DNA of 64,000 nucleotides from Magnetococcales bacterium (GCA_015228815.1 JADGCV010000012.1:26749-90748), one strand, 5' to 3'; positions 11,933-35,834 are shown, counted from the first letter of the stretch. The notes: generated by a model from the sequence alone, not told the origin. Numbers and translations are program-made.

Positions 11933-12622
11933 TCACTTTCCCCCCTGCGACGGTGGCATCGTCTGACGCATCTCCGCGCCGGGAACAGGGACGAACTGGA
12001 CCGGCAGAGGCCACGCCCGCATGATGCCAAAGAGGATGCCGATACCCGCCAGGATCATCCCCCCCAGCTTGATGATCATCCGCAGTTCGAGTTCCCTGAT
12101 TCGTGTTTCCGCCTTGGTGTCGAGTTCCTTGAAACGTGTTTCCGCCTTGGTGTCGAGTTCCTTGAGGCTGGTCTGCATTCTGGCATCGAGTTCTTTGATG
12201 CTGGTTTGTGTCTTGGCGTCGAGTTCCTTGAGGCTGGTCTGCATTCTGGCATCGAGTTCTTTGATGCTGGTTTGTGTCTTGGCGTCGAGTTCCTTGATGC
12301 TGGTTTGTGTCTTGGCGTCGAGTTCCTTGATACTTGTTTCCAATTTGGTATCAAGTTCTTTGATACTTGTTTCCAATTTGGTATCAAGTTCCTTGATATC
12401 TCGTTGCAGATCGGAATGGACCTTCTCGATTTTAAGGTCAAGTTCCTTGATATCCCGTTTGAGGCCCGCGTTGATTTCGGCCAGGTCTTTCCTGGTGGCC
12501 AGTCGTTCCTCGATCAGGCTGAAAAAGGCTTCCGCCTGGAGGGCTGCCTGTTGTTCCGTCAACCCGGCATCCTTGAGTTTCCGGACATAGGCATAGGTGT
12601 CGAACGCGGTGGCATTGCACAT
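11933..12622 (-). CDS. DUF1640-type coiled-coil protein with C-terminal TM helix
   Basis: ORF 11933..12640. The second ATG (12622) is preceded by GGAG. The sequence runs MCNATAFDTYAYVRKLKDAGLTEQQAALQAEAF, then about ten 11-aa IKELDxKxxTS repeats, then MIIKLGGMILAGIGILFGIM. Confidence 0.75.
   Translation of the reverse strand: MCNATAFDTYAYVRKLKDAGLTEQQAALQAEAFFSLIEERLATRKDLAEINAGLKRDIKELDLKIEKVHSDLQRDIKELDTKLETSIKELDTKLETSIKELDAKTQTSIKELDAKTQTSIKELDARMQTSLKELDAKTQTSIKELDARMQTSLKELDTKAETRFKELDTKAETRIRELELRMIIKLGGMILAGIGILFGIMRAWPLPVQFVPVPGAEMRQTMPPSQGGK
12085..12445. repeat. 33-bp (11-codon) coding tandem repeat array inside the DUF1640 gene, with 66-bp higher-order units
   Basis: Units such as GGCGTCGAGTTCCTTGAGGCTGGTCTGCATTCT and GGCATCGAGTTCTTTGATGCTGGTTTGTGTCTT recur head to tail. 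The boundaries are approximate. Confidence 0.8.
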
Positions 12623-12789
12623 GATGGTTTCTCCTTCCATGGGACAAGTTTACAACACTGCCTTCGGCAACGTCCATTCCCGATGTCTGCCGGCCTGGGG
12701 CCATGGGTGCGTTGTTTCTGGCCGTTGGTCCATTCACGCCGATTGAATTTTTTTCGGTCCCGGTCGGCGGTTTCCAGGTACAAACGATC
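12611..12789. repeat. Direct repeat copy A (179 bp), roughly 90 percent identical to 35657-35834
   Basis: Hand alignment from GGCATTGCACATGATGGTTTCTC to TACAAACGATC. It covers the DUF1640 start and upstream region, plus a frameshifted fragment of a CZB-domain C-terminus (DRLYLETADRDRKK). Confidence 0.9.
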
Positions 12790-15063
12790 AAAGGTTTTTT
12801 CCTGGTTGAAATCAAGAGCCGCCCCGGTCGTCTGACCGGCAATGCCGGCGTGTGGGTCTGGATCCAGGAGGGTCGGGAGCATGTGTACGACAACCCGCTC
12901 CTACTTGCCAACCGCAAGGCCAGGAAACTCATCGCTTTGCTGCGCCGCCAGAAGGCGTTGTCGGATCGCACGTTATTTCTTGAAGCGCTGATTTTCTGTT
13001 CCGCGGAGGATCTCGAATGCGATCTGGATCAGCATGCGCGCACCGGGGTGTGGCTGAGAGACCGGGAAGTCGAAGGGGACAAGCCGGGTCGTCAGGGGAT
13101 CCTCCATGCATTGACCAAGGCGCTGACTCCGGAAGAGGTGCGGCGATTCCAGCGCATCGACCGCTCCATGGCCAGGAAGGTCTGCCGGGGCCTGGAAAAG
13201 GCAGGGATTCGCCGCGCCAACACGTACCGGCGGGTTGGCCAGTACCAACTGGGCCATCTGCTGGCCGAGGAGGACTTCTACCAGGAGTGGGAAGCACGGC
13301 ATGTCACTCTGGAGAAAATCTTCCGCCGGGTGCGGATCTATTCGGCTTCATCCAGGGAGAAGGGCACCCGGGAGGCCATCATCCGTGCGGCCCGGCGGGA
13401 GTTCCAGATCCTGGAAGGCATCGAGCATCCCGGGATTCTGCGCGCGGAGAACTATGTCGAGCATGAACTGGGGTTCACTCGGAGTTGTTGGAGCGTTTCG
13501 GGGGTGATCTGCTTCGGGCGTTCAACCATTTGGAGGAGCACGGCATTTCCCACCGGGACATCAAGCCGGGCAATCTGGGCCTGGTGGCGTCCGGCAGCAA
13601 GGGCAAGCTGCATCTGATCCTGTTTGATTTCTCCCTGGCGAGGATCCCGCCGGACAACATTCGCGCCGGCACGCCGCCCTATCTGGACCCGTTTCTCAAG
13701 GATGCCTCGCGCCGCCGGTGGGATCTGCATGCCGAGCGCTTTGCGGCGGCGGTCACTCTGTACGAGATGGCCACGGGAACCGTTCCCAAGTGGGGCGACG
13801 GCAGGAGCGATCCTGCGCTCCTGAGCTGTGAGGCGACCATTGACAGCGCGTTGTTCGAGCCTTCTCTGCGTGAGGGGTTGAGCGCATTTTTCACCAAGGC
13901 GCTGGCGCGTTCGGTCAAGAATCGCTTCGACACCTGCGAGGAGATGCTCAAGGCGTTCAGCCAGTTGTTCCGGGAGGTGGAACGGGCCGAACGCAGTACG
14001 GGCGCAGGCCACGCCGGCGATTGGGCCACCCTGCCGGAGCCGATCTCCCTGGAAACCCCGGTGGTGTTCCTGTCGTTCAGCGACCGGGCATTGAGTGCCC
14101 TTGAGCGGATGGATTTGCGGACCGTCGGCGATTTCCTGGGTGTCCATATCGACGGCCTCTCCCGCATTCGGGGGGGGGGACGTCAGACCCAGAAGGAGCT
14201 GACCCAGGTCCATCGCACGCTGGCGCCGCGTTTTCCGGAGTTGCATGTCACCGGCCCGCCCCAAAGCGGCGATGGACGATGCCTTGGCCCCGGAAGCGGA
14301 GGTGCAGAGCGTTGACCTGTTGGCCCGGCAGTTGATCCCGGCTCCGGCGCGGGCGGGTTCGGACGCCGAGCCTCGCGTCCTGGAGCTGCACCTGGGTTTG
14401 AAGGATCCGGTGGCGGTTTTCTCGACTCAGGCTCTCTGGCCCGGGCAGGCCGAGATTGCCGATGCGGTGGGCGTGACCCGGGGGCGGATCAGCCAGATCG
14501 TGGGCAAGGCGCGCACCCTCTGGGCCAAGCGGATTCCATCATTGACGGCGCTGCGTGGGGAGATTGCCGAACTGCTGAACGGGGCGGGCGGCGTCATGAC
14601 CCTGAGCGAGTTGAGCAATGCGGTGTTGGCTTTGCGGGGTTCCGCCCGGATGGCGCCGGAGCGTTTTCGCACCGCCCAGGCGGTGACCCGGGCTGCGTTG
14701 GAGGTGGATCGCGGCATGAAGTCGCCGCGTTGGATCGAACGGCGCGGCGACGGGCAGGTGTTTCTGGCCCAGGACGAGGACGACCGGGGGCAGGAGCGGG
14801 CCGACTATGCCCTGAGGCTGGGCCGCGCCGCCGATGAGCTGGCCGGGCAGGATCCTCTGCCCACGCCGTCCCGGGTGATGGAGCGGCTGCAAGGGGAGCG
14901 ATCGCCTCGGGATATGGCCCTGCTTTCCACCGCTCGTTTGCTGAAGCTGGCCGTCAGCGCCTCTCGCCATGCGGCCCTCTCCAGCCGGTTGGAGATCTAT
15001 GCCGGTGATTACCCCGGGCGAGTGGGCGCGTATTCCGGATGGGTGGATTCATGGACTGCATGA
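12790..15063 (+). pseudogene. pglW: PglW-like NERD + Ser/Thr protein kinase, 5-prime truncated and frame-disrupted
   Basis: Three consecutive ORFs lie in different frames.
- 12703..13617: after about 29 repeat-derived codons it reads FLVEIKSRPGRLTGNAGVWVWIQ..NPLLLANRKARKL, the C-terminal half of a NERD domain, followed by kinase N-lobe sequence REFQILEGIEHPGIL.
- 13485..14315: the catalytic core HRDIKPGNL, DFS, GTPPYLDPF.
- 14245..15063: an HTH-like tail.
The kinase segment between EHELG and LLERFGG is missing at about 13465-13485. Confidence 0.6.
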
Positions 15064-15488
15064 GCGGCCCAACGCATGAGGGCGAGAGAATTTCATGATC
15101 AATGCCGCGACATTATTGAAGGATTTGAAAGGGCTGCTGCCCGGTCTGGAGGAGGATATCCGCGCCCGGCTGGAGGAGATGCCCGAAGAGAAGGCGCGGC
15201 TGGTCTGCAACAGGCCCTGGCCCTGGCGGGTTATTTCATCAGCATGAAGGAGAACGAGGGCTGGTCTGCCGAACGACTCACCCCCCTGCTGGCCGGATTG
15301 CTGGAGTTGTTGCCCTGGCTCAAACAGTGGCACAATGCGCCGGATCCCACCTTCGATACCGGCATGGGGGATCACTTCGCCGGATTCATCGACGAACAGT
15401 TGCGCGAACTGAAGATGACCGAAGCGAAGGTGCGATCCTGGTCTCCACCCCAGACCGCACGCCGTCGAGGAGGGAAAAGGAACATGTC

Positions 15489-15866
15489 ATGAACATTGCC
15501 AGGCATACCGACTATTGGCGTAAAGGGTCCGGAGGCGATTGGGAGGCGGCAGAAATTTTGCTCGAAAAGGGCAAGATACAGCAAGGTCTGTTTTTTCTGC
15601 ATTTGGCCATGGAAAAACTGATCAAGGCCCACGTCTGCCGGATCACACGGCAGCTTCCTCCAAAGAGTCACAATTTGATCCGCCTTCTGGAACTGACGGG
15701 ACTCGACCCCGGCTTGAGCGAAAAAAGACTGTTGTTGGAGTTGAACGACTTCTGCATGGAGGGGCGCTATCCTGATGAACTGGCACCGCCACCATCGCAC
15801 AAAGAAGCATTGGCCATTCTGTATCGAATCCAGGAGGTGCGCATATGGTTGCACAACCAGTCGTAG
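15489..15866 (+). CDS. HEPN domain protein (toxin of a HEPN/MNT pair)
   Basis: Part of ORF 15327..15866. The ATG at 15489 gives MNIARHTDYWRKGSGGDWEAAEILLEKGKIQQGLFFLHLAMEKLIKAH ... EGRYPD, a HEPN-type layout including the R-x4-6-H-like region. Confidence 0.75.
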   Translation: MNIARHTDYWRKGSGGDWEAAEILLEKGKIQQGLFFLHLAMEKLIKAHVCRITRQLPPKSHNLIRLLELTGLDPGLSEKRLLLELNDFCMEGRYPDELAPPPSHKEALAILYRIQEVRIWLHNQS

Positions 15867-16171
15867 AAGCCGTGCAAAATTACATCAAGGCTCTACAGCT
15901 TGCTGGAATCGCCGTTGATTTTGCCGTCCTTTACGGATCCCATGCACGAGGCGAAGCAACGGAATGGAGCGATATCGATGTGATGGTGGTTTCTCCGCTC
16001 TTCGACCAGGAGAAACGTCGTGATGACATCAATCGTCTCTGGTACGCCACGTTGGAGTCAGACACGCGCATCGAGCCGGTTGGCGTAGGCACAAGGCAAT
16101 GGGAACTCGACGATGGTATCCCCCTGATCGAAATCGCCCGCCGCGAAGGCCAGATCATCCACCCAACATGA
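15845..16171 (+). CDS. Minimal nucleotidyltransferase (MNT) domain protein, antitoxin partner
   Basis: YGSHARGEATEWSDIDVMVV matches the GSxxRGxxxxxSDIDL motif. It overlaps the HEPN gene by 22 nt. Confidence 0.85.
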   Translation: MVAQPVVEAVQNYIKALQLAGIAVDFAVLYGSHARGEATEWSDIDVMVVSPLFDQEKRRDDINRLWYATLESDTRIEPVGVGTRQWELDDGIPLIEIARREGQIIHPT

Positions 16172-16187: not shown

Positions 16188-19100
16188 ATGACACTGATCA
16201 AGGAACTCATCGAAATACCCGAGCGGGTTCACAAGGGGGATTTTGTCCTGCGCCTTGCCGAGGGGGTGGAGCGGGCCGACGAGACCTTGCGTCATTACGT
16301 GGTGACGCCTCAGCTCAAGGAGCGCTTCGACCACGCCATCACCTTCGTCAAAAGCGCAGTGGACAACCAGGCCAGCAAGGCGGCCTATCTCCATGGCAGC
16401 TTTGGCAGCGGCAAATCCCACTTCATGGCGGTCTTGCACCTCCTGCTTCAGCACAATCCCGATGCCCGGGCCATCCCTGAACTGTCCCCGGTGGTGGCCA
16501 AACACGATGGTTGGCTCACTGGAAAAAAACTGCTCATGGTTCCGTACCACATGATTGGCGCGATCAGCATGGAGTCGGCCATTCTGGGAGGGTTTGTCCA
16601 GCATGTGCGCAAGCGCCATCCGGAAGCGGGCATCCCCGGCGTTTACCTGGCCGAAGGGATCTTCCGGGATGCCATCAAGTTGCGCGAAGAGATCGGCGAC
16701 TACGGGTTTTTCCCCATGCTCAACGGCCCGGTCAAGGAGGAAGGCGACTGGGGAGCGTTGGAAGTGACATGGTATCCCAAACGATTTGACGAGGCATTGA
16801 AACAACCTCCCGGGGGTGAGCTGCGCACGGCCCTGGTCGGCGATCTGGTGAAAAACATCTTTACCGCCCATGCCAGTTTGGCCGCGACCCAGGAGGAGGC
16901 CTTCGTCCCTCTGGAGGAGGGCCTCGCCATCATCAGCCGTTTCGCCCGGGGGCTGGGTTATGACGGGCTGATTTTGTTTCTGGACGAGCTGATCCTGTGG
17001 CTGGCCAGCCATGTGGCCGACCTGAAATTTGTCAGTGCCGAGATCCAGAAGGTGATCAAGCTGGTGGAGTCCGGCGATGGCCAGCGCCCCGTGCCCATCA
17101 TCAGCTTCGTCGCCCGTCAGCAGGACCTGCGGGAGCTGGTGGGCGAGCACATGCCCGGGGTCCAAAGGCTCTCCTTCGCCGACACCCTGAAATATTGGGA
17201 GGGGCGCTTCGACATCATCACCCTGGAAGACCGCAACCTGCCGTTGATCGCCGAAAAGCGGGTGCTGCGCCCCAAATCCGATGCCGCCCGCGCCCAACTG
17301 CAAACCGCTTTCGAGACCGCTACCAGGGTTCGGGAGGAGATCCTCTCCACCCTGCTCACCAGCAACGGTGACCGGGAGATGTTTCGCCGGGTCTACCCCT
17401 TCAGCCCGGCCCTGGTGCAGGCCCTGGTGGCCCTCTCCTCGGTGCTGCAACGGGAACGCACCGCGCTGAAAGTGATGATCCAACTACTGGTCAACCAGAG
17501 GGAGACCCTGGAGCTGGGTCGGATCGTGCCCGTGGGCGACCTCTACGATGCCATCGCCGACGAGGCCGAACCTTTCACCAGCGAGATGCGCCACCACTTT
17601 GAAAACGCCCGCAAGCTCTACCGGCAGAAGCTCTTGCCCATGCTGGAAAAGGATCATGCCGTGCGGGCGGAAAACATTGCCGATCTGCCGGTGACCGACG
17701 TCAAACGTCGCGCTTTTTTGACCGACGACCGGCTGGTGAAGACCCTGCTGCTCTCGGCCCTGGTTCCGGCGGTGGAGTGTTTCAAGGGTCTCAACGCCTC
17801 GCGCCTGACGGCGCTCAACCATGGCAATGTGCGTGCGCCCATTCCCGGGCAGGAAGCGGGCATCGTTCTGCAGAAATGCCGCAAGTGGGCCGGACAGGTG
17901 GGCGAGATCAAGATCGGCGACGAACCGACCAACCCGACCCTGTCGGTGCAACTGACCGGCGTGGACATCGAAACCATCCTGGAAAAGGCCCGTGGTGTGG
18001 ACAACCCGGGCAGCCGGGCCAAGAAAATCCGCGAGATTTTGTTCGCCGCCCTGGGCATTTCCGATTCGGACGCCCTGTTCGGGGTAGAGGTCGTCCACAC
18101 ATGGCGGGGGACCTCCCGAGCCCTGGACGTGGTCTTTGCCAACATTCGCGAGATGGCCGACGAGACCCTCAAGGGTGGCGAAGAGCGTTGGAAGGCCGTC
18201 ATCGACTTTCCCTTCGACGTGGCGGGGTACACCCCGTTGGATGACCTGGCCACCCTGGAGCGCTTCCGCAACCGCAACAAACCCAGCCGCACCTTTTGCT
18301 GGTTGCCGTCCTTTTTCAGTCGTGAGGTGCAGCGGGATCTGGGCTCACTGGTGGTGATGGAGCATGTTCTGACCAGCGACGATCGCTTCCGCGGCTATAC
18401 GGGCCATCTCTCGGAAATCGAACGCGCATCGGCCAAGAGCCTGATGGACAACCAGCGCAGCCAGCTCAGGCAGTATGTGCAAAACTGCCTGGAGGGGGCC
18501 TATGGCATCACCTTGGCGGCCCCCGGAACCCTGGATGGAGCGCACAATCTTGCCGACCACTTTCAGTCCCTGGATCCCACCTTCCAGCTCCGCCCGCCGG
18601 TGGCGGCCAATCTGAAGGGTGGCTTTCTCCATTTGGTGGAGCAGGCCCTGGGCCATCAGTTCCCGGCCCATCCCCGGTTCGAGGCGGAGATCAAGGCCGC
18701 CAACCTCAAGCGGGTGATGGAAGAGGTCATCCGGGCCATCCAGTCCAGCGAAGGGCGCGTGGGCGTGGAAAAGCCCCTGCGCTCGCTGATGAAGCAGATT
18801 GCCACCCCCCTGCTGTTGGGCGAAATGTATGAAACCCATTTCGTGCGGGACACGCACTGGAAAACCCATTTCGAACGCAAGATCATCGACCACGGCAGTC
18901 TGACCACCGTGTACCACCTGCGGCAATGGACCGACGACCCCAAACCCATGGGGCTCCCCACCGTTGCCCAGAACCTGTTGATCCTGCTCTTCGCCCAGCA
19001 GACCAACCGGGTTTTCATGCGGCACGGCATGGTGATTCAGCCCAATCTGGAACGCATTCCCGACGATGCCGTTCTGCATCAACAGATATTGCCGGAACAG

Positions 19101-27002: not shown

Positions 27003-27992
27003 ATGAATTTGGATACGATTTGGCGCCCGGAGGAAAAGGTGTTGTATGACCGGTTGGTGGACGACCCGTTCTCCTCCCATTGGTGTATTTCCGATCTTTT
27101 GGCCCATTACCAACTCGATGGGCAGCCGGTTGAACCGGAGGCCATGGCTGGCACCGTCGAGATTATTGATAAGGTGTTGAATTATATCAATCAGCAACTT
27201 TCCCGGGATAACAATTGGATCGTTCCAAAACAACTATTGCGCGAAGGCTGTTTTCCACGCATTCGGCAAATGCGAGATGTCCATCAATTCGATGTTGGCA
27301 GCCACCTGGCATGTTGCCATGCTTTGGCCGTTCGCGGCGCTCCCGTCCATCTGTGCCGGACGCTCGGACACAATCGACTGGCCGATCGGTTGTACCAGAC
27401 CTGCGCTCGGGTGCCCGTCACGACGCTTGGGTTGACCGCTCTGTTTCACGATATATTCAAATGTTTACGCCCCCGCCGTCCCCTGCCCAGCAAAATGGGC
27501 GTGTTGGCCGATTTTGAATGGCAATTGCCCGATGGCACGTATCCCTCGTCCCAGATCCGGGAGGACGAGGGCGCCATTGCCAGTTCGGCGATGCCCTGCT
27601 TCGTCGCCGATGAGCGTGTGACCCGCCCGGCCATCCAGGCGATCCTGACAGGCAATCGAATGGGCCAACTGCTCTATTCCCGAATCAAGGAACATCCCCG
27701 AGACCATCTGGAATCCTTTGAACTTCGGCTCGACCAGTTGCTCACGGAACCGTGGGCATGGTTGGGGATTTACATGGGAATTGTGGATTGGCAGGGGAAA
27801 GGTTTGGCCCAGTATGTGGTGGCCACGCGGAAAAAAGCAGTCAGAAGTCTGCATGATGCCGGTGTCGAACTACTATCGGCCATCGAGGAACGTCTTTTAC
27901 GAATGGAATCAACACTTGGCGCACGCACAGGCATGAGACCGTTGGCAGGCCATGCTTCTGGCTGTGCTGTCTGTTCTCATGGGGAAATATGA
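27003..27992 (+). CDS. Hypothetical protein, possibly HD-type phosphohydrolase
   Basis: The only weak cue is GLTALFHDIFK (an HD dyad) after histidines in SHLACCH. The coding call rests on operon context and composition. Confidence 0.4.
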   Translation: MNLDTIWRPEEKVLYDRLVDDPFSSHWCISDLLAHYQLDGQPVEPEAMAGTVEIIDKVLNYINQQLSRDNNWIVPKQLLREGCFPRIRQMRDVHQFDVGSHLACCHALAVRGAPVHLCRTLGHNRLADRLYQTCARVPVTTLGLTALFHDIFKCLRPRRPLPSKMGVLADFEWQLPDGTYPSSQIREDEGAIASSAMPCFVADERVTRPAIQAILTGNRMGQLLYSRIKEHPRDHLESFELRLDQLLTEPWAWLGIYMGIVDWQGKGLAQYVVATRKKAVRSLHDAGVELLSAIEERLLRMESTLGARTGMRPLAGHASGCAVCSHGEI

Positions 27993-29263
27993 GCGTTCTG
28001 CTGTCTCATTGGTATGACCTGGCCCAATTCATGAGTGATCACGCCATCAAGGTGGTGGGGTTGGATTTGCGTGGCACCCTGGTTGATCCGCAACGAAAAG
28101 GTAACCTGTTCAAGGTCGCCCGGTCCATTCTGACAGGAGTTCCTCCGGCCCTGCTGGAATCCATCTGCCAAACCATTCCCGATCTTGTCATTCAACGCCA
28201 TGAACACGAGGAACAGGTCTGCGACTGGACCCTGATGACCTGTCTGGAATTGTTCGGGGAATTGCGGGTCCGGGGTGTTGAAACCGGAAACCTGGATTTG
28301 GAGCGCCTCTATTCGTTGATCGTGCGTGACTATTTCAGGGAAGCGCGGCATCTGGTGGATGACGACGCACTTGAGGCGCTGATTGCCGCCTGCAACGCGA
28401 TGAATATTGCGGTTCATATTGTCGCCGATGGCATGGCTTGGCGGGAGTCGGCCATCTTTCAGCAGTTATTCCCGGTCAGTTCCAGACGGATCGCCGGATT
28501 TTTCAGTTCCTCCATGGGGGGTATCAATAAACTGTCTCCACGTTACTACCAGGCATTTGCCGATGCCCTTGGCCTGCCGGTCCGCCACGTTCTGATCATC
28601 GGGGACCGGTTCGACAAGGATGTCGGCGTGGCCTTGAAAGCCGGGTGTCGGGCTTTGTTGATTGCGCCGGACCCGCGCGCTCCGTTGACGACCCCATCGT
28701 TAAACCATATTCTGCCAGGCATTTCCAGAAGCCATGATACGGGCGTGATCCTTGGGCGCTTCCAGCCGTTCCATCTGGAACATTTGCGCTATGCCCGGGC
28801 CGCCAGTCACAGGGCCAGAACGTTGATTGTGGGAATTACCCAGCCTTTCGGTGCCAACAGCGGCGAGCCGGGTCAGGAACGGACCAGGCCGGATCACAAT
28901 CCTTACCCCTATTGGTTGCGCGAACAGTGCGTTCGTCATGCCTTGTTCGAGGCCGGGATCCAGGTGCGAGCCATCCTGCCGTTGCCTTTGGATGTGGCGA
29001 GCCTGCAATCGGCCCTTGCCCCGGATACGCCCATTTTTACAACCGTCTTCGACCGTTGGGGTGAGGAGAAGGAGGCGCTCTTGCGGCAAAGTGGCTTTAG
29101 TGTGTACCGGCTTGAGGTGGGAGATAAAACCATCACCGGCAGTCAAGTCAGAGCGTTGGTCGAGAAACGTGACAACCGTTGGCGCACTTTCGTTCCCCCC
29201 GTGGTTGCCGAACGGTTTGGCGCGGCGATTGAAACGTATCTGATCAACGGGAGACGATCATAA
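27989..29263 (+). CDS. Fusion of a HAD-type phosphatase (N) and a GRFQPFH nucleotidyltransferase (C, NMN adenylyltransferase-like)
   Basis: VVGLDLRGTLVD (DxDxT-like) and IIGDRFDKDV mark the N-terminal half. GVILGRFQPFHLEHLRYARAA is a cytidylyltransferase-family H-x-x-H motif in the C-terminal half. The start overlaps the upstream stop (ATGA). Confidence 0.7.
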   Translation: MSVLLSHWYDLAQFMSDHAIKVVGLDLRGTLVDPQRKGNLFKVARSILTGVPPALLESICQTIPDLVIQRHEHEEQVCDWTLMTCLELFGELRVRGVETGNLDLERLYSLIVRDYFREARHLVDDDALEALIAACNAMNIAVHIVADGMAWRESAIFQQLFPVSSRRIAGFFSSSMGGINKLSPRYYQAFADALGLPVRHVLIIGDRFDKDVGVALKAGCRALLIAPDPRAPLTTPSLNHILPGISRSHDTGVILGRFQPFHLEHLRYARAASHRARTLIVGITQPFGANSGEPGQERTRPDHNPYPYWLREQCVRHALFEAGIQVRAILPLPLDVASLQSALAPDTPIFTTVFDRWGEEKEALLRQSGFSVYRLEVGDKTITGSQVRALVEKRDNRWRTFVPPVVAERFGAAIETYLINGRRS

Positions 29264-30561
29264 TGACGCATGCGTTTTGCGGCCTGGACTTCGGTACCAC
29301 CAATTCCACCATCGGGATTGTGAAGGAAAGGCCGTTGCTGGTTCCTCTGGAGGAGAATCATTCCTATATCCCCTCGGCGATTTTCATCGATGAGGCGTCG
29401 GGGGACTGGTCGTTTGGCCGGACGGCCATTGAAAAATACATGGAGGGTCATGACGGCAGGCTCATGACCTCGCTGAAAAGCCTGCTGGGTTCTTCGTTGA
29501 TGTCGGAAAAAACACTGGTTGGCCATCGGTATTATGCGTTCGAGGAAATCCTGGAAAAATTTCTGGGAATGATCAAATCCAGTGCCGAACGGACTCTCGG
29601 CCACCCGATCCACGATGTGGTCGTGGGACGTCCGGTCCATTTCAAGAACGACGCTCCCGATGCCGATCATCGCGCCCAGGAGATGCTTACCCGAATTCTG
29701 CGAACGATCGGGTTTGACCACATCGTTTTCATGTACGAACCCGTCGCCGCCGGGATGGTCTTTCATGCGGAGATACCCCAGGAGAATCACCTGTGTCTGG
29801 TCGTGGACATCGGAGGAGGAACCTCTGATTTTTCGGTCATCCAGGTTGAACCGCCCCGTGGGCAGGATGCATCGGGCGGATTCAAGGTTTTGGCCAGCAA
29901 TGGCATTCCCATCGCGGGCAATGATTTCGATCAGGAGATTAGCCTCCGGCTGGTGATGCCTCATTTGGGACTGGGGTCCACCGTAAAAAGTTTCAGTAAT
30001 CCGGCCATCCCCTTTCCGAAACATTTTTTTTACGACTTGTCGTCTTGGCGCTTGATCAATCGGTTATACAACAACGACACGATCGTGTCGTTGAAAGATC
30101 TGGTTCATGGTTCCAACGACAAGATCAGAACCGGTCGGTTGTTGAAAGTCATACAGGAGCGGCACGGGCATGCCATCAACAAGAGCGTTGAGGATCAAAA
30201 AAAAACTTTGTCCGATGCCGGTCCATCGCTGTTGAATCTCGAATATATCGCTGCGGATTTGCGTATTCCCATTGAGTCTGGCGAGGTCCATCAGGCAATC
30301 CACAACAGTTTGGCAAAAATCGTTACCATGGCAGAAAAGACGATCATGGATGCTGGCGTCCAGGCGCACCAGATTGATCAGGTTCTGTTCGTGGGTGGAT
30401 CGACAAAACTGCCCCTGGTTCAGGAACGCATCATGTCTCTGGTTCCAGAGGGCAAGAAGGTCATCAAGGAAGCCTTTGGCAGCATCGGTCTCGGATTGAC
30501 CCTGGCAGCGGCCAAACGGTTTGGACCCACCACAACTTTATGTGATGGTGACATCCGATGA
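29263..30561 (+). CDS. Hsp70/actin-fold ATPase (YegD-like)
   Basis: Motifs: FCGLDFGTTNSTIG, VVDIGGGTSDFSV and LFVGGSTKLPLV. There is no substrate-binding lid region. The start overlaps the upstream stop (TAATG). Confidence 0.8.
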   Translation: MTHAFCGLDFGTTNSTIGIVKERPLLVPLEENHSYIPSAIFIDEASGDWSFGRTAIEKYMEGHDGRLMTSLKSLLGSSLMSEKTLVGHRYYAFEEILEKFLGMIKSSAERTLGHPIHDVVVGRPVHFKNDAPDADHRAQEMLTRILRTIGFDHIVFMYEPVAAGMVFHAEIPQENHLCLVVDIGGGTSDFSVIQVEPPRGQDASGGFKVLASNGIPIAGNDFDQEISLRLVMPHLGLGSTVKSFSNPAIPFPKHFFYDLSSWRLINRLYNNDTIVSLKDLVHGSNDKIRTGRLLKVIQERHGHAINKSVEDQKKTLSDAGPSLLNLEYIAADLRIPIESGEVHQAIHNSLAKIVTMAEKTIMDAGVQAHQIDQVLFVGGSTKLPLVQERIMSLVPEGKKVIKEAFGSIGLGLTLAAAKRFGPTTTLCDGDIR

Positions 30562-30581
30562 CTTTACGATAAGGTGTCTTC

Positions 30582-32144
30582 ATGGCTTCATCAGTTGTAT
30601 TGGCTACACCGGCACCCATTTCCCATCGCACCGCGGAGGAAAATCTGGGACTGGCTTATTTGGCGGCGGTTCTACGGTCCCACGGCTTTCCCGTCGTGAT
30701 TCTGGATGCGTGGTTGTCGGGTTGGTCCGAGGAGGTCTTGTCGCAGCGGATCCTTGCTTGCGGCGAAATTCTTTGGATCGGTTTTTCCGCCTATCGTTCC
30801 AACATGGAACAGGCCATAAAAACAATCGACCTTTTGCGAGCAGCCGGTTTGACCGCTCCGGTGGTGGCGGGAGGATATGGTCCCACATTCCACACGGAAA
30901 CTTTTTTAAGGGCTGGGTTCGATTTTGTGGTTCGGGGGGAAGGCGAGTGGACGGCCCTGGATCTCACAAGACATTTCTTGACGGGTCATCCGCCTTTGGC
31001 GTTCATTCCCAACCTGTCCTTCCTTCAGGCGGGCCGGATCGTGGACACGCCCCACCGTCCGTTAATACAGGATCTGGATACGCTGCCGGATCCGGCTCGC
31101 GACACGATGCCCATGTCGATGGCACGGAAAAGTGCCATCCATATTGATTCCTCACGAGGATGCCATGGAAAATGCGTTTTTTGTTCGGTCACGTCCTTTT
31201 TTCATCTGGCACCGGGACGTCAGTGGCGGGAACGATCCATCGTTCGTTTTGTGGACGAGTTGGAACGGTTGACCCGGCGAGGCATTTCTTGTTTCAAGGT
31301 TTTGGATGACAGTTTTCTTGAGCCGCCGCGCGATCTTGCGTGGTGTCGCTCGCTGGCCGACGAGATTCAGTCGCGGGGGCTTGAGGTACAATTGCGTGGA
31401 TCTTTGCGTGCCGATCAGGTGACTGGTGAAATTGTCGGTGAACTCAAGAGGGCAGGCTTTTTTTCCTTTGCCTGTGGGATCGAAAATTTTTCCGACACGG
31501 CCCTCAAGCGCATGCGCAAGAGGGCCACAAAGCAAGAAAACCTTCAGGCTTTGGCCAGTTTCAAGGAACATGGCATTTATGTCCAGGCCGGTCACATCCT
31601 TTTTGATCAGGGCACGACCCTGTGCGAATTACAGGAAAACCTGGAGCAGATGCGGCAGACCATGTGGACATTAAGCAAGGGCATTTTTTCCATCATGTTT
31701 GCCGCCGATGGCACGCCCCTGGCCCATCGTTTGCGACGCCATGGCACTTTGTTGGAAGATCCACATGGTTTTGGCAACAATAACTACGATTTGGAAAATC
31801 CGGAGGTGTTGCCCGTCTATGAGGGATTGAGGCTTTGGCACAAGGCCCACAGCGTTACCTACGACAAAACAATGGATCCCCTGTCCGCTCCCAAGGCCAT
31901 CTCGCCGCAATGCCGGCGTGGTTTTCATGCGTTGTCTCTGGACTTGCGCCAACAGGATTTGGCAGTCATGTCACAATTGCTTGATTTGGCCATGGCGGAA
32001 CGACCGATGAAGGAGGTTTTAGCGTATGTCCACCAAACCATTCTGGACAAGCAGCCGTTTTATCGGGCATTGGAGGAAAAACTGGGGGCGTTGTATCGGG
32101 AAACCGGTTTGGTTTATGACGCTGCGGTCAATCCCTTCATCTGA
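30582..32144 (+). CDS. Cobalamin(B12)-binding-domain radical SAM enzyme
   Basis: An N-terminal Rossmann-like LGLAYLAAVLRSHGFPVVILD is followed by SSRGCHGKCVFCSV (CxxxCxxC). Confidence 0.8.
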   Translation: MASSVVLATPAPISHRTAEENLGLAYLAAVLRSHGFPVVILDAWLSGWSEEVLSQRILACGEILWIGFSAYRSNMEQAIKTIDLLRAAGLTAPVVAGGYGPTFHTETFLRAGFDFVVRGEGEWTALDLTRHFLTGHPPLAFIPNLSFLQAGRIVDTPHRPLIQDLDTLPDPARDTMPMSMARKSAIHIDSSRGCHGKCVFCSVTSFFHLAPGRQWRERSIVRFVDELERLTRRGISCFKVLDDSFLEPPRDLAWCRSLADEIQSRGLEVQLRGSLRADQVTGEIVGELKRAGFFSFACGIENFSDTALKRMRKRATKQENLQALASFKEHGIYVQAGHILFDQGTTLCELQENLEQMRQTMWTLSKGIFSIMFAADGTPLAHRLRRHGTLLEDPHGFGNNNYDLENPEVLPVYEGLRLWHKAHSVTYDKTMDPLSAPKAISPQCRRGFHALSLDLRQQDLAVMSQLLDLAMAERPMKEVLAYVHQTILDKQPFYRALEEKLGALYRETGLVYDAAVNPFI

Positions 32145-32392: not shown

Positions 32393-32815
32393 ATGAAGGT
32401 CGAACCATATCTGTTTTTCGAGGGCCGTTGCGAGGAAGCCATCGACCTATACCGCCGTGTTCTCGGCGCCGAGGTGACGTTTCTCATGCGTTATCGGGAG
32501 AGCCCGGAACCCTCCGAGCATTGGCCCAACCCGGAGGCCGGCGACAAGGTCATGCATGCGAACCTGCGCCTGGGCGATACCATGGTGATGGTTTCCGACG
32601 GCCAGTGTGGTGGGAAGGCGGGCTTCGAGGGCTTCTCCCTGACTGTGTCCCTGGCCGATGTTGGGGAGGCCGAACGCATCTTCGCCGCCATGAGCGACGG
32701 CGGACAGGTGCGGATGCCTCTTGGAAAAACCTTCTGGTCTCCCTGTTTCGGCATGGTGACGGACCGTTTCGGGGTAGGATGGTTCATCGTGGTGCATGAA
32801 ACCATGGCCTGCTGA
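32393..32815 (+). CDS. VOC/PhnB-like glyoxalase-fold protein
   Basis: KVEPYLFFEGRCEEAIDLYRRVLGAEV ... VMHANLRLGD ... TFWSPCFGMVTDRFGVGW is the typical PhnB-family pattern. Confidence 0.8.
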   Translation: MKVEPYLFFEGRCEEAIDLYRRVLGAEVTFLMRYRESPEPSEHWPNPEAGDKVMHANLRLGDTMVMVSDGQCGGKAGFEGFSLTVSLADVGEAERIFAAMSDGGQVRMPLGKTFWSPCFGMVTDRFGVGWFIVVHETMAC

Positions 32816-32816
32816 G

Positions 32817-33215
32817 GCGTAACCGTTCAGACCCCTTCCCGTATTAAGATTATTGGTAACTGCCCAGGTACCCCCAGGGTCCAGAATTATTGAAAGAAAA
32901 AAGTGGTCTGGGGGATTGCCCCCAGGGTTTTGACTTTGTTTTTGATTTTGTTTTTCCACGCGCCCTTTTACCCGAAGCAAGATTCCCGCGTGATTTTTGC
33001 GGGAATCTTGCGTAGGCGTGCGCCTTGGTTTACCCTTCTTCGCGGTTTTTGCGAAGAAGGGTAAACGCCGTGCAGGTTGAAAGGCCTGAAAACGTGCAAT
33101 TCGCTTCGGGTGAAATGGCGCGTAAAAAACAAAATCAAAACCCTGGGGAAAATCCCTTAAGACTCCTTTTTTCTTTCAATAATTTTAATATGGGGAGGGG
33201 TCTGAACGGTTACGC
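32817..33215. mobile_element. MITE-like long palindromic element (399 bp) with 20-bp perfect TIRs and a 4-bp flanking duplication
   Basis: The TIR GCGTAACCGTTCAGACCCCT (32817-32836) pairs with AGGGGTCTGAACGGTTACGC (33196-33215). TGAG occurs immediately outside both ends (32813-32816 and 33216-33219). The arms are an extended imperfect inverted repeat, and there are two central hairpins (AAGATTCCCGCG..CGCGGGAATCTT and TTTACCCTTCTTCGC..GCGAAGAAGGGTAAA). Confidence 0.7.
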
Positions 33216-33266: not shown

Positions 33267-33794
33267 ATGTCGTTGATTACGCTCCAGACACCGGAAACCA
33301 CCACGGGAAAAACCCGGGAAATCTTTGACATCATCGATCGGATGCTTGGGAGAATTCCCCATGCCATGCAGCTGTTCGGACACAATTCGATGCTGATGGA
33401 GTACATGAATAACCGGTTTGCCTACTACCACGGGCAACAGCAGGAGCTGACACCCGAGTTGATGCAGTGGATTCTCTACCTGAACGCTCATCGCAAGCAG
33501 TGTGTCTTCTGCATCGACTACAACAAGGGGCAACTCCTTGCGTCCGGTATTCAAGAGGAGACGCTGATCGCAGCCGTCTCCGATCCAGGTGTCACTCCCC
33601 TGTCGGAGAAGGAAAAGGCGATGCTGCTTTTCGCGCTGGATACGGCCAGGGACGACAAGTCGGCCACTCCTGACAGGATCGAACGCCTGCGCCAACTTGG
33701 CTACTCGGATACCGCCATTTTCAATGCGGTGGAATTCACCGCCTTTGGGACATTTTCAGACACGCTGCTCAACGTGTTCCAGGTGGAGACGTAA
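33267..33794 (+). CDS. Carboxymuconolactone decarboxylase (CMD)/AhpD-like family protein
   Basis: A 175-aa protein, MSLITLQTPETTTGKTREIF...NAHRKQCVFCIDYN. It is a paralogue of 34909..35436. Confidence 0.75.
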   Translation: MSLITLQTPETTTGKTREIFDIIDRMLGRIPHAMQLFGHNSMLMEYMNNRFAYYHGQQQELTPELMQWILYLNAHRKQCVFCIDYNKGQLLASGIQEETLIAAVSDPGVTPLSEKEKAMLLFALDTARDDKSATPDRIERLRQLGYSDTAIFNAVEFTAFGTFSDTLLNVFQVET

Positions 33795-33890
33795 CCTCCC
33801 CCACGGTCGCTCGATGGGGGATTTCTGATTTGATCGGGGAAACGCTTTCCTCGCCTCCAAACCAGGCGATGGCAGAGGTTCCATTTCGGG

Positions 33891-34232
33891 TTGCGCTTGC
33901 TGAAGGGTGGCAAGGCCGCCTCCATCCGGCCCATCGCCGAGCAGGAGAAAATCGACTCGTCCTGCGTGGCCACGGCGCCGCGCCTTGCTGGCCCTCGACA
34001 ATCGGCCTGGAATGCCGCTTTGGATCGACCGGAGGCAGGCCCGAAGGACGCTGGCATGGATGACCAGCGTCACATCATCAAGGCCATTCTCGCTGACCTC
34101 CAGACCGACGTCATGACCTGGCGGGAACTGGCCAGGCCGTTTCCCATGGAGACCGAATCCTCGCCCTGCGTGCTCCTGGAAGGCGGTCACCCGCTTCCGC
34201 CATGGCAACCATTCGGTCAACTATTCCATTGA
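33891..34232 (+). pseudogene. Possible remnant of a recombinase-associated HTH/C-terminal domain
   Basis: LRLLKGGKAASIRPIAEQEKIDSSCV ... RHIIKAILADLQTDVMTWRELARPFPME resembles the pattern (S..IAE.EGI..SYVSR...LA.LAPDIV.AIL.G.QP..L....L...FP..W) seen in proteins linked to serine recombinases. The middle is disrupted and no catalytic domain lies upstream. Confidence 0.3.
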
Positions 34233-34235
34233 CAG

Positions 34236-34850
34236 ATGGAAACGAAACCGGCAGAATCAGTCGCCATGGGACGAACGAGCGACGCCAGGGAACGACTGAT
34301 CCAAAGCGGCATGGAGCTGATCCACGCCGGAGGATACACTCAGGCTGGCGTCCAGGAAATCTGCGATCAGGCCGGAGTGCGCAAGGGAAGTTTCTACCAT
34401 TTCTTCCCTTCCAAGGGCGATCTGGCCCTGGCGGTGGTGGAGCGCTTCCAGGAGCAGGCCCGGGAAATCTTTCTCGACCGGGCGTTGGCGTCGGATCTGC
34501 CCCCGGGGGAGCGCATCCTGCGCTTCTTCACCCTGGCCGGAGAGATCCAACAGGGGTTCAAGGAGGCGGACGGGTGGGTCAAGGGGTGTCCCTTCGCCAA
34601 CCTGGCCCTGGAGATGAGCACTCGTGACCAGGCCTTGCGCCTTTTGTTGGAGCAGGTGCTTCAAGGGGTGATCCAGCAACTCGAAGGTGTGGCGCGGGAG
34701 GCGGGTCAGCCCCCATCAGCCGCGCAGCGGACGGCGGAAGCGATCTTTTCCCTCTTCGAGGGGGCCATCCTGCTGGCCAAGACCCGCAACGATCCGGAGG
34801 TCATTCGTCGCATGGGCGCAGTAGCCCAAACCTTGATCGAGATGGCGTGA
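34236..34850 (+). CDS. TetR/AcrR-family transcriptional regulator
   Basis: ARERLIQSGMELIHAGGYTQAGVQEICDQAGVRKGSFYHFFPSKGDLALAVVE is a canonical TetR N-terminal HTH. Confidence 0.85.
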   Translation: METKPAESVAMGRTSDARERLIQSGMELIHAGGYTQAGVQEICDQAGVRKGSFYHFFPSKGDLALAVVERFQEQAREIFLDRALASDLPPGERILRFFTLAGEIQQGFKEADGWVKGCPFANLALEMSTRDQALRLLLEQVLQGVIQQLEGVAREAGQPPSAAQRTAEAIFSLFEGAILLAKTRNDPEVIRRMGAVAQTLIEMA

Positions 34851-34908
34851 TTTTTTTTATCTGCATTATAGATGTCCAGTCAACTAACATCCATTTCAGG
34901 AGACCACC

Positions 34909-35436
34909 ATGTCGTTGATCACCCTGCAATCCACCGAAACCGCCGCCAGCCCGGTGACGGAGATTTACGCCCAGTTTCGTCAAATGTTGGGTTATGTGCC
35001 GTCGCCGATGCAGCTTTTGGGCGTCAGTCCGCCGTTGTTGCAATCCTTTGCCGCCCAGGCGGGATATTTTTTCAGCGGTCAGCAGGAGTTGGACGGTGTG
35101 CTTCTGGCATGGATGCGTTATCTCGGCGCCCAGAGGCTGGCCTGCAAAGTTTGCATCGACCTGAACGCCGGCATGCTGCTCCAGATGGGGGCGACGCAGG
35201 AGGATTTGGATGCGGCGCGGAAGAACCCCGCCACGGTCCCCCTGCCGGAAAAGGAAAAAACCATGCTTTTGTTCGTCCTGGATGCGGTGCAAAACGACAA
35301 GGGCGTCACCCCGGCGACCATCGCCCGGCTGCGCGAACAGGGCTACAGTGAACGGGCCATTTTCGAAGGGGCGGCCTATGCTGCGTACAGCCTGTATGCG
35401 GATACTCTGCTGAACATTTTCCAGGTGGAGGAATGA
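34909..35436 (+). CDS. CMD/AhpD-like family protein (paralogue)
   Basis: MSLITLQSTETAASPVTEIY...GAQRLACKVCIDLN. It has the same length (175 aa) and layout as 33267..33794. Confidence 0.75.
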   Translation: MSLITLQSTETAASPVTEIYAQFRQMLGYVPSPMQLLGVSPPLLQSFAAQAGYFFSGQQELDGVLLAWMRYLGAQRLACKVCIDLNAGMLLQMGATQEDLDAARKNPATVPLPEKEKTMLLFVLDAVQNDKGVTPATIARLREQGYSERAIFEGAAYAAYSLYADTLLNIFQVEE

Positions 35437-35458: not shown

Positions 35459-35477
35459 GCGTAACCGTTCAGGCCCC
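35459..35477. repeat. Solo terminal repeat of the GCGTAACCGTTCAG element family
   Basis: GCGTAACCGTTCAGGCCCC matches the 32817 TIR with one mismatch. No partner end lies nearby. Confidence 0.4.
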
Positions 35478-35495
35478 GTCATTCCCTGCTACAGT

Positions 35496-35541
35496 GGGGA
35501 TCCAGGATTTGCGGAGCCTTCCTGGATCCCCTCTTTTGCTT
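35496..35541 (+). terminator. Candidate rho-independent terminator after the second CMD gene
   Basis: A perfect 12-bp stem, GGGGATCCAGGA / TCCTGGATCCCC, with a 12-nt loop, followed by TCTTTTGCTT. Confidence 0.5.
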
Positions 35542-35656
35542 AGGAGGACGTTTGTCAAGCGGGGGTATGAACGATTGCGGGATGGCGAGGATTGCCGTTC
35601 TCAAAATTTCACACGGCGGCCTGTGAGATTGTTCGATTCGAGGGGGGTACGCTTCA

Positions 35657-35834
35657 GGCATTGCACATGATGGTTTCTCTTTCCATGGGACAAGTCTGCA
35701 ACACCGCTTCCGGCAACGTCCATTCCCGATGTTTGCCAGCAGGGGCCATGGGTGCGTTGTTTCTGGCGCCGGTCCATTTACGCCGATTGAATTTTTCTCC
35801 GGTCCCGGTCGGCGGCTTCCAGATACAAACGATC
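35657..35834. repeat. Direct repeat copy B (178 bp) of 12611-12789
   Basis: It carries a DUF1640 start truncated after 4 codons (ATGTGCAATGCCTGA on the minus strand). It also holds the intact last ~19 codons of the chemoreceptor CZB domain. Confidence 0.9.

What the first reader, a model, noticed from the sequence alone, without database searches (positions are those of the whole stretch)
12611..35834. About 23 kb of accessory DNA bracketed by imperfect 179-bp direct repeats that split a chemoreceptor / DUF1640 gene pair
Copies A (12611-12789) and B (35657-35834) align end to end in the same orientation at roughly 90 percent identity by hand count.
- Copy B carries the true 3-prime end of the chemoreceptor (..[20 protein letters not shown]-stop) and only 4 codons of a DUF1640 gene before a stop.
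- Copy A carries the intact DUF1640 start and only a frameshifted stub of the CZB tail (DRLYLETADRDRKK).

This is the pattern expected if the chemoreceptor and DUF1640 genes were once adjacent and about 22.9 kb was inserted between them by recombination across this region, giving attL/attR-like duplication. The enclosed DNA is a patchwork. It holds a decayed BREX-like locus, a HEPN/MNT pair, three MITE-like elements, an AT-rich radical-SAM locus, an orphan 8-gene operon, a recombinase-associated remnant and a TetR/CMD cassette. The left junction cuts straight into a NERD domain (12790), so the island has been remodelled since.
Basis: partly seen in the sequence, partly recalled or inferred. 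Interest (0 to 1): 0.7.

Follow-up and report, generated by a model that had tools for sequence, protein, structure and literature searches.

The report
Decayed genomic island between duplicated gene junction
Two diverged 179-bp copies of one gene-to-gene junction (chemoreceptor end plus start of a DUF1640 gene) bracket 23 kb of decayed defence and metabolic DNA in an uncultured magnetotactic bacterium; it looks like an old, now immobile island and is ordinary.

Summary
12611-12789 and 35657-35834 are direct repeats, 90.0% identical over 180 columns (15 substitutions, 3 single-base indels, E about 1e-61). Both edges are sharp and there is no third copy.

Copy B completes the NIT-MCP-CZB chemoreceptor and then reads MCNA-stop. 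Copy A carries the ribosome-binding site and start of the DUF1640 gene. It also carries a chemoreceptor tail that is one deleted base away from intact and has its own stop codon.

The 22.9 kb between the copies is a patchwork:
- a pglW pseudogene cut at about codon 60, exactly at the junction
- a HEPN/MNT pair
- an intact pglY
- three MITEs with 8-bp target duplications
- an AT-rich radical-SAM block
- an 8-gene operon containing selD
- a TetR/CMD cassette

- I found no integrase, no tRNA and no overall compositional contrast.
- The DNA outside the repeats is accessory too.
- No close relative gives an empty site. The nearest chemoreceptor orthologue (76% aa) has different neighbours on both sides.
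- One distant relative does have MCP directly followed by DUF1640.
- DUF1640 is a multi-copy family that also rides on P4-like integrative elements.

Best reading (about 0.5): an old insertion that duplicated the junction, followed by decay. Main rival (about 0.3): two diverged chemoreceptor-DUF1640 pairs trimmed by deletions. Interest is low.

The parts
12611..12789 (-). Copy A of the junction repeat. On the minus strand it carries a chemoreceptor CZB-tail stub (DRLYLETADRDR, one-base deletion, KKIQSA, TGA), the spacer, the ribosome-binding site and the first 4 codons of DUF1640.
35657..35834 (-). Copy B of the junction repeat. It carries the functional last 19 codons and TAA stop of the chemoreceptor, the spacer, the ribosome-binding site and a dead 4-codon DUF1640 start (MCNA-stop).
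11933..12622 (-). DUF1640 / CCDC90-like gene: coiled coil with a C-terminal membrane segment, 229 aa. It contains 33-bp tandem repeats (12054-12429). An AGGAGA ribosome-binding site lies upstream of the ATG at 12622.
35778..38900 (-). NIT-MCPsignal-CZB chemoreceptor gene, 1040 aa from the first ATG. The database copy P0001 is 1028 aa from a later start.
12790..15063 (+). pglW pseudogene (BREX type 2 kinase with an N-terminal NERD domain). Profile positions 60-285, 613-868 and 876-1117 of 1403 lie in three different frames. The first 59 positions, 286-612 and the C-terminus are missing.
15327..16171 (+). HEPN (15327-15866) and minimal nucleotidyltransferase (15845-16171) pair, sitting where pglX lies in the intact relative locus.
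16188..19847 (+). Intact pglY/brxC ORF, 1219 aa (PADLOC BrxC-PglY, 1503 bits). pglX, pglZ, brxD and brxHI are absent.
19863..20089 (.). MITE copy 1 (terminal inverted repeat GTAACCGTTCAG...). No clean target-site duplication found.
20090..22570 (-). AT-rich block (GC 0.475) with a radical SAM/SPASM gene (20123-21211) and a pyrophosphatase-like ORF (21254-21640).
22581..32144 (+). Eight-gene operon: PaaK-like AMP ligase, SelD, ADA-like amidohydrolase, APH-like kinase, an unknown protein, a HAD plus nucleotidyltransferase fusion, a YegD-like Hsp70 ATPase and a B12-binding radical SAM enzyme.
32393..32815 (+). VOC/glyoxalase-family (PhnB-like) gene.
32819..33213 (.). MITE copy 2, about 395 bp, with 39-nt terminal inverted repeats and an 8-bp target-site duplication GCTGAGGC.
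33267..35436 (+). CMD-like gene (33267-33794), TetR (34236-34850) and CMD (34909-35436). The two CMD genes are paralogues (47% aa). 33795-34235 has no recognisable gene.
35461..35578 (.). MITE copy 3, about 118 bp, with an 8-bp target-site duplication GGGATGGC. It is an independent insertion and is not the cause of the copy B edge.
35581..35656 (.). 76 bp of unassigned sequence between MITE 3 and copy B. It has no similarity to DUF1640 or to the left flank of copy A.

Best explanation
**What it is.** The two 179-bp copies descend from one ancestral junction in which a NIT-MCP-CZB chemoreceptor gene was followed, after a 121-nt spacer, by a DUF1640 gene on the same strand.

**How it arose (inferred).**
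- DNA was inserted at this junction by recombination across a second, diverged copy of the junction that came in on the incoming DNA. That would be either site-specific integration of the e14/icd kind or a Campbell-type single crossover.
- Such an event leaves one hybrid copy at each end and keeps both flanking genes whole.

**How it works now (read directly from the sequence).**
- Copy B supplies the last 19 codons and the stop of the chemoreceptor.
- Copy A supplies the spacer, ribosome-binding site and start codon of DUF1640.

**What happened afterwards.** The loss of a recombinase is inferred. The other steps are read from the present sequence.
- Any recombinase was lost.
- A deletion or illegitimate join removed the first ~59 codons of pglW and fused the rest to copy A.
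- The BREX type 2 locus lost pglX, pglZ, brxD and brxHI.
- At least two MITEs inserted, and unrelated modules accumulated.

**Present state.** The longest identical runs are only 23-26 nt and no recombinase is visible, so the island is most likely immobile.
For: - The repeat is real, has exactly two copies and has sharp edges.
- Each outer gene is intact and each inner stub is dead. Copy A's tail keeps 17 of 19 residues and its own stop codon once a single base is restored, so it came from a working chemoreceptor end.
- A single recombination event explains why both stubs are so short (57 nt of a 3.1-kb gene, 12 nt of a 0.7-kb gene) and why they overlap in exactly one junction. Two independent deletions would have to land there by chance.
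- The spacer and tail are not a dispersed family.
- MCP followed by DUF1640 occurs in a distant Magnetococcales MAG (L022).
- The insert is accessory and decayed: pglW pseudogene, orphan pglY, HEPN/MNT, MITEs with 8-bp target duplications, an AT-rich block. A related MAG has the intact pglX-pglY-pglZ-brxD-brxHI locus.
- A known precedent has the same anatomy. Prophage e14 is flanked by icd, which extends into the element, and by the displaced icdC C-terminal pseudogene (PMC13626634).
Against: - No integrase or recombinase anywhere in 64 kb, and no tRNA or tmRNA.
- No empty site could be found. The nearest orthologue (L021, 78% nt) differs on both flanks.
- Overall GC and tetranucleotide usage do not differ from the flanks, and the flanks are themselves accessory DNA.
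- The island edge at 12790 lies inside a gene. The copy A boundary is therefore probably secondary and the original repeat may have been longer, up to a whole chemoreceptor gene.
- DUF1640 is multi-copy within single MAGs and rides on P4-like integrative elements. This raises the prior for a second, imported pair.
- The sequence is a MAG contig, so the arrangement depends on the assembly being correct.
Confidence: 0.5

Rival explanations
1. Two chemoreceptor-DUF1640 pairs, paralogous or one acquired from a relative and about 90% identical, once lay in the same orientation in this region. One deletion removed nearly all of the chemoreceptor of pair A together with the 5' end of pglW. A second event removed DUF1640 of pair B from codon 5 onward. 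The 179-bp repeat is simply the overlap of what survived. No insertion between adjacent genes ever took place.
For: - The copy A edge is a truncation junction inside pglW.
- Copy A's tail looks like a formerly functional gene end with its own stop codon.
- DUF1640 is multi-copy within single MAGs, for example four HQL77 locus tags.
- DUF1640 is mobile cargo of P4-like elements.
- Magnetococcales carry many NIT-MCP paralogues.
Against: - It needs two independent events whose endpoints fall within 57 nt and 12 nt of the same short spacer. That is roughly a 2% chance for each if endpoints are random within the genes.
- No other chemoreceptor or DUF1640 remnant is present in the window.
- MCP-DUF1640 adjacency is rare: one of about 38 DUF1640 loci with enough upstream sequence, and none of 20 MCP loci. 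Two such pairs side by side would be unusual unless they share an origin.
Confidence: 0.3
2. The junction was duplicated in place, for example by a tandem or segmental duplication or by a long staggered-break repair during insertion. The two initially identical copies then drifted apart to 90% identity.
For: - Direct orientation and sharp edges.
- Differences are spread evenly along the repeat.
- The heavy decay and several MITE insertions inside the island point to an old event.
Against: - Ten percent divergence within one genome needs a very long time without gene conversion or deletion between the repeats.
- The changes in copy A's tail are conservative and the stop codon is preserved as TGA. 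That fits evolution as a coding sequence better than neutral drift, although 57 nt is too little to test.
- No known insertion mechanism creates 179-bp target duplications.
Confidence: 0.12
3. Assembly artefact: the MAG contig joins DNA from two co-existing strains through the shared junction sequence, so the two copies are never on one molecule.
For: - The source is a metagenome-assembled Magnetococcales contig of 96.9 kb.
- About 90% identity is typical of co-occurring related populations.
Against: - A single chimeric join yields one copy of the shared sequence, not two copies 23 kb apart with unique DNA on all four sides.
- The identical runs are at most 26 nt, shorter than the final k-mers that assemblers normally use.
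Confidence: 0.05

Closest known systems
Cryptic prophage e14 (and phage 21) at the icd gene of E. coli K-12
   Same: - The element is bracketed by imperfect direct repeats made from the end of a host gene.
- One copy keeps the gene functional, and the other is a displaced, non-functional C-terminal fragment (icdC) at the far end of the element (PMC13626634; Hill et al. 1989 as cited there).
- The repeat is more than a hundred bp long, from my own knowledge.
- Recombination between the copies would restore a single hybrid gene end.
   Different: - e14 has its own integrase and excises on SOS induction. No recombinase is present here.
- Here the repeat runs past the gene end, through the whole spacer and 4 codons into the next gene.
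- One edge of the island lies inside a truncated gene.
- The content is a patchwork, not a prophage.
Degenerate ('grounded') genomic or defence islands flanked by imperfect direct repeats
   Same: - Accessory, defence-rich, mosaic content: a BREX remnant, a HEPN/MNT pair and MITEs.
- Flanking direct repeats.
- Signs of decay and accretion.
- A position in a variable region next to CRISPR-Cas and other defence genes.
   Different: - Classical islands sit at tRNA or tmRNA genes, keep at least an integrase remnant, and often differ in composition from the host.
- None of these three features was found here.
P4-like integrative elements of Magnetococcales that carry DUF1640 (L115, L116, L107, L108)
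   Same: They carry the closest homologues of the window's DUF1640 gene: 78-83% nt identity in the two longest aligned stretches, confined to the coding sequence. This shows that the family moves on mobile elements.
   Different: - Those elements are about 8 kb and encode an integrase, AlpA, a PriCT_2/Toprim/AAA_25 primase and a TubC_N protein.
- They are flanked by an 18-nt repeat that looks to me like a tmRNA 3' end.
- None of these genes or repeats is in the window.

Membership tests
Integrative element with att duplication that rebuilds the target gene end (e14/icd type) | Direct repeats in the same orientation at both ends of the inserted DNA | tested here: met
   12611-12789 versus 35657-35834, 90.0% identity, E 1.6e-61, no similarity beyond the edges
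Integrative element with att duplication that rebuilds the target gene end (e14/icd type) | One repeat completes a functional flanking gene and the other is a displaced dead fragment | tested here: met
   Copy B gives an intact chemoreceptor end, while copy A's tail is frameshifted. Copy A gives an intact DUF1640 start, while copy B reads MCNA-stop.
Integrative element with att duplication that rebuilds the target gene end (e14/icd type) | A tyrosine or serine recombinase gene, or a recognisable remnant, inside the element | tested here: not met
   No recombinase domain in any ORF of the island or the window in the Pfam scans, nor in the ORFs scanned against NCBIfam and PADLOC. tblastn of the candidate remnant 33891-34232 against plasmids found nothing.
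Integrative element with att duplication that rebuilds the target gene end (e14/icd type) | An empty site (the two flanking genes adjacent, single junction) in related genomes | tested here: inconclusive
   The closest orthologue, L021 (76% aa), has different genes on both sides. The distant L022 has MCP followed by DUF1640 187 bp later. No same-species genome is in the collections.
Integrative element with att duplication that rebuilds the target gene end (e14/icd type) | A core of perfect identity where strand exchange occurs | tested here: inconclusive
   Identical runs of 23 nt (at the DUF1640 edge) and 25-26 nt (mid-spacer) exist, but nothing marks either as a crossover site.
Integrative element with att duplication that rebuilds the target gene end (e14/icd type) | Excision or circular forms | not testable with these tools
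   Needs the raw reads of the source metagenome or a culture.
   - Only two copies in the window.
- A conserved 25-mer is absent from the metagenome contigs.
- Other DUF1640 loci match only from about 14 nt upstream of the ATG.
BREX type 2 (Pgl) defence system | Complete gene set pglW, pglX, pglY, pglZ, brxD, brxHI | tested here: not met
   Only pglY is intact. pglW is a three-frame pseudogene lacking profile positions 1-59, 286-612 and 1118-1403, and the other genes are absent. A related MAG has the intact pglX-pglY-pglZ-brxD-brxHI locus.
MITE (non-autonomous transposable element) | Terminal inverted repeats, target-site duplication, no transposase, several copies | tested here: met
   The terminal motif GTAACCGTTCAGRCCCC gives 7 matches against 0.35 expected. 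Copies at 32819-33213 and 35461-35578 have 8-bp duplications, GCTGAGGC and GGGATGGC, and 39-nt inverted repeats.

The most novel reading that the evidence does not exclude
The 179-bp junction acts as a portable homology cassette. An integrase-free block of defence and metabolic cargo carries a copy of a host gene junction and enters or leaves the chromosome by host RecA-type recombination alone. It rebuilds both flanking genes each time, so cargo can be swapped between related Magnetococcales at this one locus without any dedicated recombinase.
Probability: 0.08. Interest if true: 0.5.

Novelty: new member of a known kind. Interest (0 to 1): 0.22.

Why it matters
It would matter only modestly. 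It would document how a variable, defence-rich region in an uncultured magnetotactic lineage was built, and give one more case where an insertion preserves both neighbouring genes by duplicating their junction. It also gives a concrete site, the chemoreceptor/DUF1640 junction, to inspect in future Magnetococcales genomes for alternative cargo. It opens no long-standing question. The by-products may be of more practical interest than the repeat itself: the selD-containing operon, DUF1640 as cargo of P4-like elements, and a MITE family with 8-bp target duplications.

Tried and rejected
**Exact look-ups of the window's own proteins.** The chemoreceptor, DUF1640, TetR and database copy P0001 are not on record, so the rest of the source contig could not be fetched.

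**Search for an empty site.**
- The genome-collection scan with the chemoreceptor found only relatives at 51% identity or less, none with a DUF1640 neighbour.
- The only close orthologue (L021) sits on a 3.7-kb contig and both of its flanks differ from the window.

**Dispersed-family test.**
- An exact 25-mer scan of the metagenome contigs found nothing.
- Eighty DUF1640 loci from metagenomes have no chemoreceptor upstream.

**Structured RNA, promoter or terminator in the spacer.**
- No Rfam hit.
- No promoter-like or terminator-like site.
- Folding z-scores of +1.1, so no structure signal.

**MITE-mediated origin of the copy B edge.** Rejected. MITE 3 has its own intact 8-bp duplication and ends 76 bp from the repeat.

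**Recombinase remnant at 33.8-34.2 kb.** The motif I recalled from memory was not supported by Pfam, NCBIfam, PADLOC or tblastn against plasmids.

**Missing 5' end of pglW elsewhere in the window.** This would have indicated an insertion into pglW. It was not found in the intergenic ORFs tested.

**Upstream context of an intact pglW in a relative.** The contigs start inside pglX.

**Compositional contrast.** None overall.

Full report
**1. The observation**

A blastn of the window against itself gives one pair, 12611-12789 and 35657-35834, in the same orientation. Identity is 90.0% over 180 columns, E 1.6e-61 (also the MAFFT alignment).

A global alignment shows 15 substitutions and three one-base indels spread evenly along the repeat. 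The longest identical runs are 23 nt, at the DUF1640 edge, and 25-26 nt, in mid-spacer.

The 150 nt beyond each edge are unrelated. The local alignment score is 15 against a shuffle mean of 15.5 on both sides. The window has no third copy.

- Copy B ends the chemoreceptor as ...[20 protein letters not shown]-stop and then reads MCNA-stop.
- Copy A reads DRLYLETADRDRKK and then runs out of frame.
- The next frame of copy A reads IQSA-stop. The stub is therefore one deleted base away from a complete tail, with its own TGA stop where B has TAA. Copy A descends from a real chemoreceptor 3' end.

**2. What lies around it**

The source is an uncultured Magnetococcales bacterium. The chemoreceptor and PglY are 100% identical to proteins of a 96.9-kb MAG contig.

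The flanking genes are:
- a NIT-MCPsignal-CZB chemoreceptor, 35778-38900, minus strand
- a DUF1640/CCDC90-like coiled-coil protein with a C-terminal membrane segment, 11933-12622, minus strand

The 22.9 kb between the copies holds the following:
- A pglW pseudogene whose similarity to the PADLOC PglW profile starts at position 60, exactly at base 12790. It continues in three different frames with large gaps.
- A HEPN/MNT pair.
- An intact pglY/brxC (1503 bits).
- An AT-rich block (GC 0.475) with a radical SAM/SPASM gene.
- An eight-gene operon whose second gene is selD (309 bits against a cut-off of 125).
- A VOC-family gene.
- A CMD / TetR / CMD cassette.
- Three copies of one MITE family. 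Two have clean 8-bp target duplications.

A related MAG has the intact pglX-pglY-pglZ-brxD-brxHI locus. The BREX type 2 system here is therefore a remnant.

**3. Tests of the island interpretation**

(a) Mobility genes. No integrase or other recombinase appears in any ORF of the 64-kb window. There is no tRNA or tmRNA and no Rfam family.

(b) Composition.
- GC is 0.566 inside and 0.562 outside.
- The tetranucleotide correlation inside versus outside is 0.71, no lower than between two outside parts (0.63).
- Only the 20.1-22.6 kb block stands out.

(c) The DNA outside the repeats is accessory too:
- type III CRISPR-Cas genes and a 19-repeat CRISPR array
- an SMC-like ATPase and a SIR2 gene
- an IS1595 fragment
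- a Ter cluster

The repeats therefore do not separate core DNA from accessory DNA.

(d) Empty site. None could be found.
- The window's own proteins are not retrievable by exact look-up.
- The only close chemoreceptor orthologue (P0002, 76% aa, 78% nt) sits on a 3.7-kb contig. Its upstream gene looks NosL-like (my reading of the translation, not a profile hit), and a different gene lies downstream. Neither resembles the window.
- All other homologues are at most 51% identical.

(e) Is the junction a dispersed family? No.
- Other DUF1640 loci share DNA similarity with the window only from about 14 nt upstream of the ATG to the stop codon.
- A 25-mer conserved in both copies is absent from the metagenome contigs.
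- About 38 of some 85 DUF1640 loci have at least 1.5 kb of upstream sequence. Only L022 among them has a chemoreceptor upstream.
- None of 20 chemoreceptor loci has a DUF1640 nearby.

(f) Is the proposed ancestral adjacency plausible? Yes. In MAG GCA_015228975.1 a NIT-MCP (35% identity) is followed 187 bp later, on the same strand, by a DUF1640 gene (37% identity) (L022).

(g) DUF1640 is a multi-copy family in Magnetococcales, with several paralogues per MAG.
- Its closest members to the window's gene are cargo of ~8-kb P4-like integrative elements: integrase, AlpA, primase, TubC_N, DUF1640.
- These elements are flanked by an 18-nt repeat that looks to me like a tmRNA 3' end.
- None of those element genes is in the window.

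**4. Most likely history and mechanism**

Read directly from the sequence:
- The two copies are homologous pieces of one contiguous junction.
- Each outer gene is intact and each inner stub is dead.
- The edge at 12790 is a truncation inside pglW.
- The insert is a decayed mosaic.

Inferred: DNA entered between two adjacent genes by recombination across a second, ~10% diverged copy of the junction carried by the incoming DNA. That leaves a hybrid copy at each end and keeps both genes functional.

A single event of this kind explains why both stubs are tiny and meet in one short spacer. The stubs are 57 nt of a 3.1-kb gene and 12 nt of a 0.7-kb gene. The anatomy matches prophage e14 at icd, where icd extends into the element and a displaced icdC fragment lies at the far end (PMC13626634).

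Later events would be:
- loss of the recombinase
- a deletion into pglW, which may also have shortened copy A
- MITE insertions
- accretion of unrelated modules

Recombination between the copies would remove 23,046 bp and restore a single junction. With identical runs of at most 26 nt and no recombinase, this should be rare. That estimate rests on what is generally known about the minimal homology needed by RecA and was not tested here.

I give this reading about 0.5.

**5. Rivals**

(i) Two diverged chemoreceptor-DUF1640 pairs trimmed by two deletions, about 0.3.
- For: the truncation at pglW, the formerly functional tail in copy A, and the multi-copy, mobile nature of DUF1640.
- Against: two independent endpoints must fall within 57 nt and 12 nt of the same spacer, and the window has no other remnants.

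(ii) Duplication in place followed by drift to 90%, about 0.12.

(iii) A chimeric MAG assembly, about 0.05. This is unlikely because a single join gives one copy rather than two, and the identical runs are short.

**6. Comparison and novelty**

It works like a grounded integrative island of the e14/icd type. It fails one defining feature of that family, a recombinase, and two others could not be settled: the empty site and the crossover core. I file it as resembling that kind, not as a demonstrated member.

It is a new instance of a known kind of structure in a poorly sampled lineage.

**7. Verdict**

It is ordinary biology, with an interest score of about 0.2.

The most novel reading still open is an integrase-free island that moves by host homologous recombination through a carried copy of a gene junction. 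I give that a probability of about 0.08.

Noticed in passing
window 8031-9444, with 3-3425: A CRISPR array of 19 copies of a 37-nt repeat (GTCTCAATCCCCTTTCATGCGGGGCGATGACTGCAAG) with spacers of about 40 nt. It lies a few kb from type III genes: Cmr2/Cas10 N-terminal domain at 3-1931 and a RAMP protein at 1938-3425. One unit is short (8567 to 8617, 50-nt spacing). Rfam gave no CRISPR-DR hit.
   Followed up: partly
window 22581-32144: An eight-gene operon with a bona fide selD (23895-24959, 309 bits against a cut-off of 125). The other genes are a PaaK-like AMP ligase, an ADA-like amidohydrolase, an APH-like kinase, an unknown 329-aa protein, a HAD plus nucleotidyltransferase fusion, a YegD-like Hsp70 ATPase and a B12-binding radical SAM enzyme. 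It may make a selenium-containing small molecule. None of the non-SelD genes reached a curated NCBIfam cut-off.
   Followed up: partly
L115 532-8731; L116 152-8234; L107 377-4707: The closest DUF1640 homologues are cargo of an ~8-kb P4-like integrative element: integrase, AlpA, a PriCT_2/Toprim/AAA_25 primase, a TubC_N protein, DUF1640 and a 116-aa ORF. L116 has 18-nt flanking repeats that look to me like a tmRNA 3' end. The L115 copy is 99.8% identical but abuts tRNA-Ala. L107 is 89.5% identical and lies next to tRNA-Arg.
   Followed up: partly
window 12054-12429 (inside the DUF1640 gene): Eight tandem 33-bp units encode 11-residue coiled-coil repeats (KELDxKxET...). The number of units varies widely among homologues, which range from 127 to 248 aa. 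The gene's length is therefore likely to change by repeat slippage.
   Followed up: partly
window 19863-20089, 32819-33213, 35461-35578; fragment at 7923-7993: A MITE family with the terminal motif GTAACCGTTCAGRCCCC (7 matches against 0.35 expected). Sizes are about 120-400 bp and target duplications are 8 bp (GCTGAGGC, GGGATGGC). No matching transposase is in the window. The fragment near 7946-7993 matches the interior of copy 1 in inverted orientation.
   Followed up: partly
window 12790-19847: A decayed BREX type 2 (Pgl) locus: a pglW pseudogene in three frames, a HEPN/MNT pair in the place of pglX, and an intact 1219-aa pglY left as an orphan. A related MAG (82% PglY identity) has the full pglX-pglY-pglZ-brxD-brxHI locus.
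   Followed up: yes
window 3143-7883: An SMC-like ATPase (3143-5257) has its best PADLOC hits to LmuB (E 2e-18). It lies next to a 650-aa SIR2_2-domain protein (5931-7883). This may be a Lamassu-like defence pair between the cas genes and the CRISPR array.
   Followed up: no
window 43894-44553 and 45203-56796: An IS1595-family transposase fragment (219 aa, with only the end of the DDE domain) is followed by a large Ter-type cluster: TerD x4 (one fused to a vWA-TerF-like domain), TerB, TerC, HAD, VWA/TerY and a PP2C phosphatase.
   Followed up: no
window 33267-33794 and 34909-35436: Two paralogous CMD/peroxidase-related genes (47% aa) flank the TetR gene. The 440 bp between the first CMD and TetR (33795-34235) has long ORFs on both strands but no detectable family.
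   Followed up: partly
L021 3474-3690: In the closest relative, a different gene begins about 165 nt downstream of the chemoreceptor orthologue (MTIDLDSLREGWDCEAKTA...). Upstream lies what looks to me like a NosL-like gene. Even at 78% nt identity this chemoreceptor sits in a different neighbourhood.
   Followed up: partly
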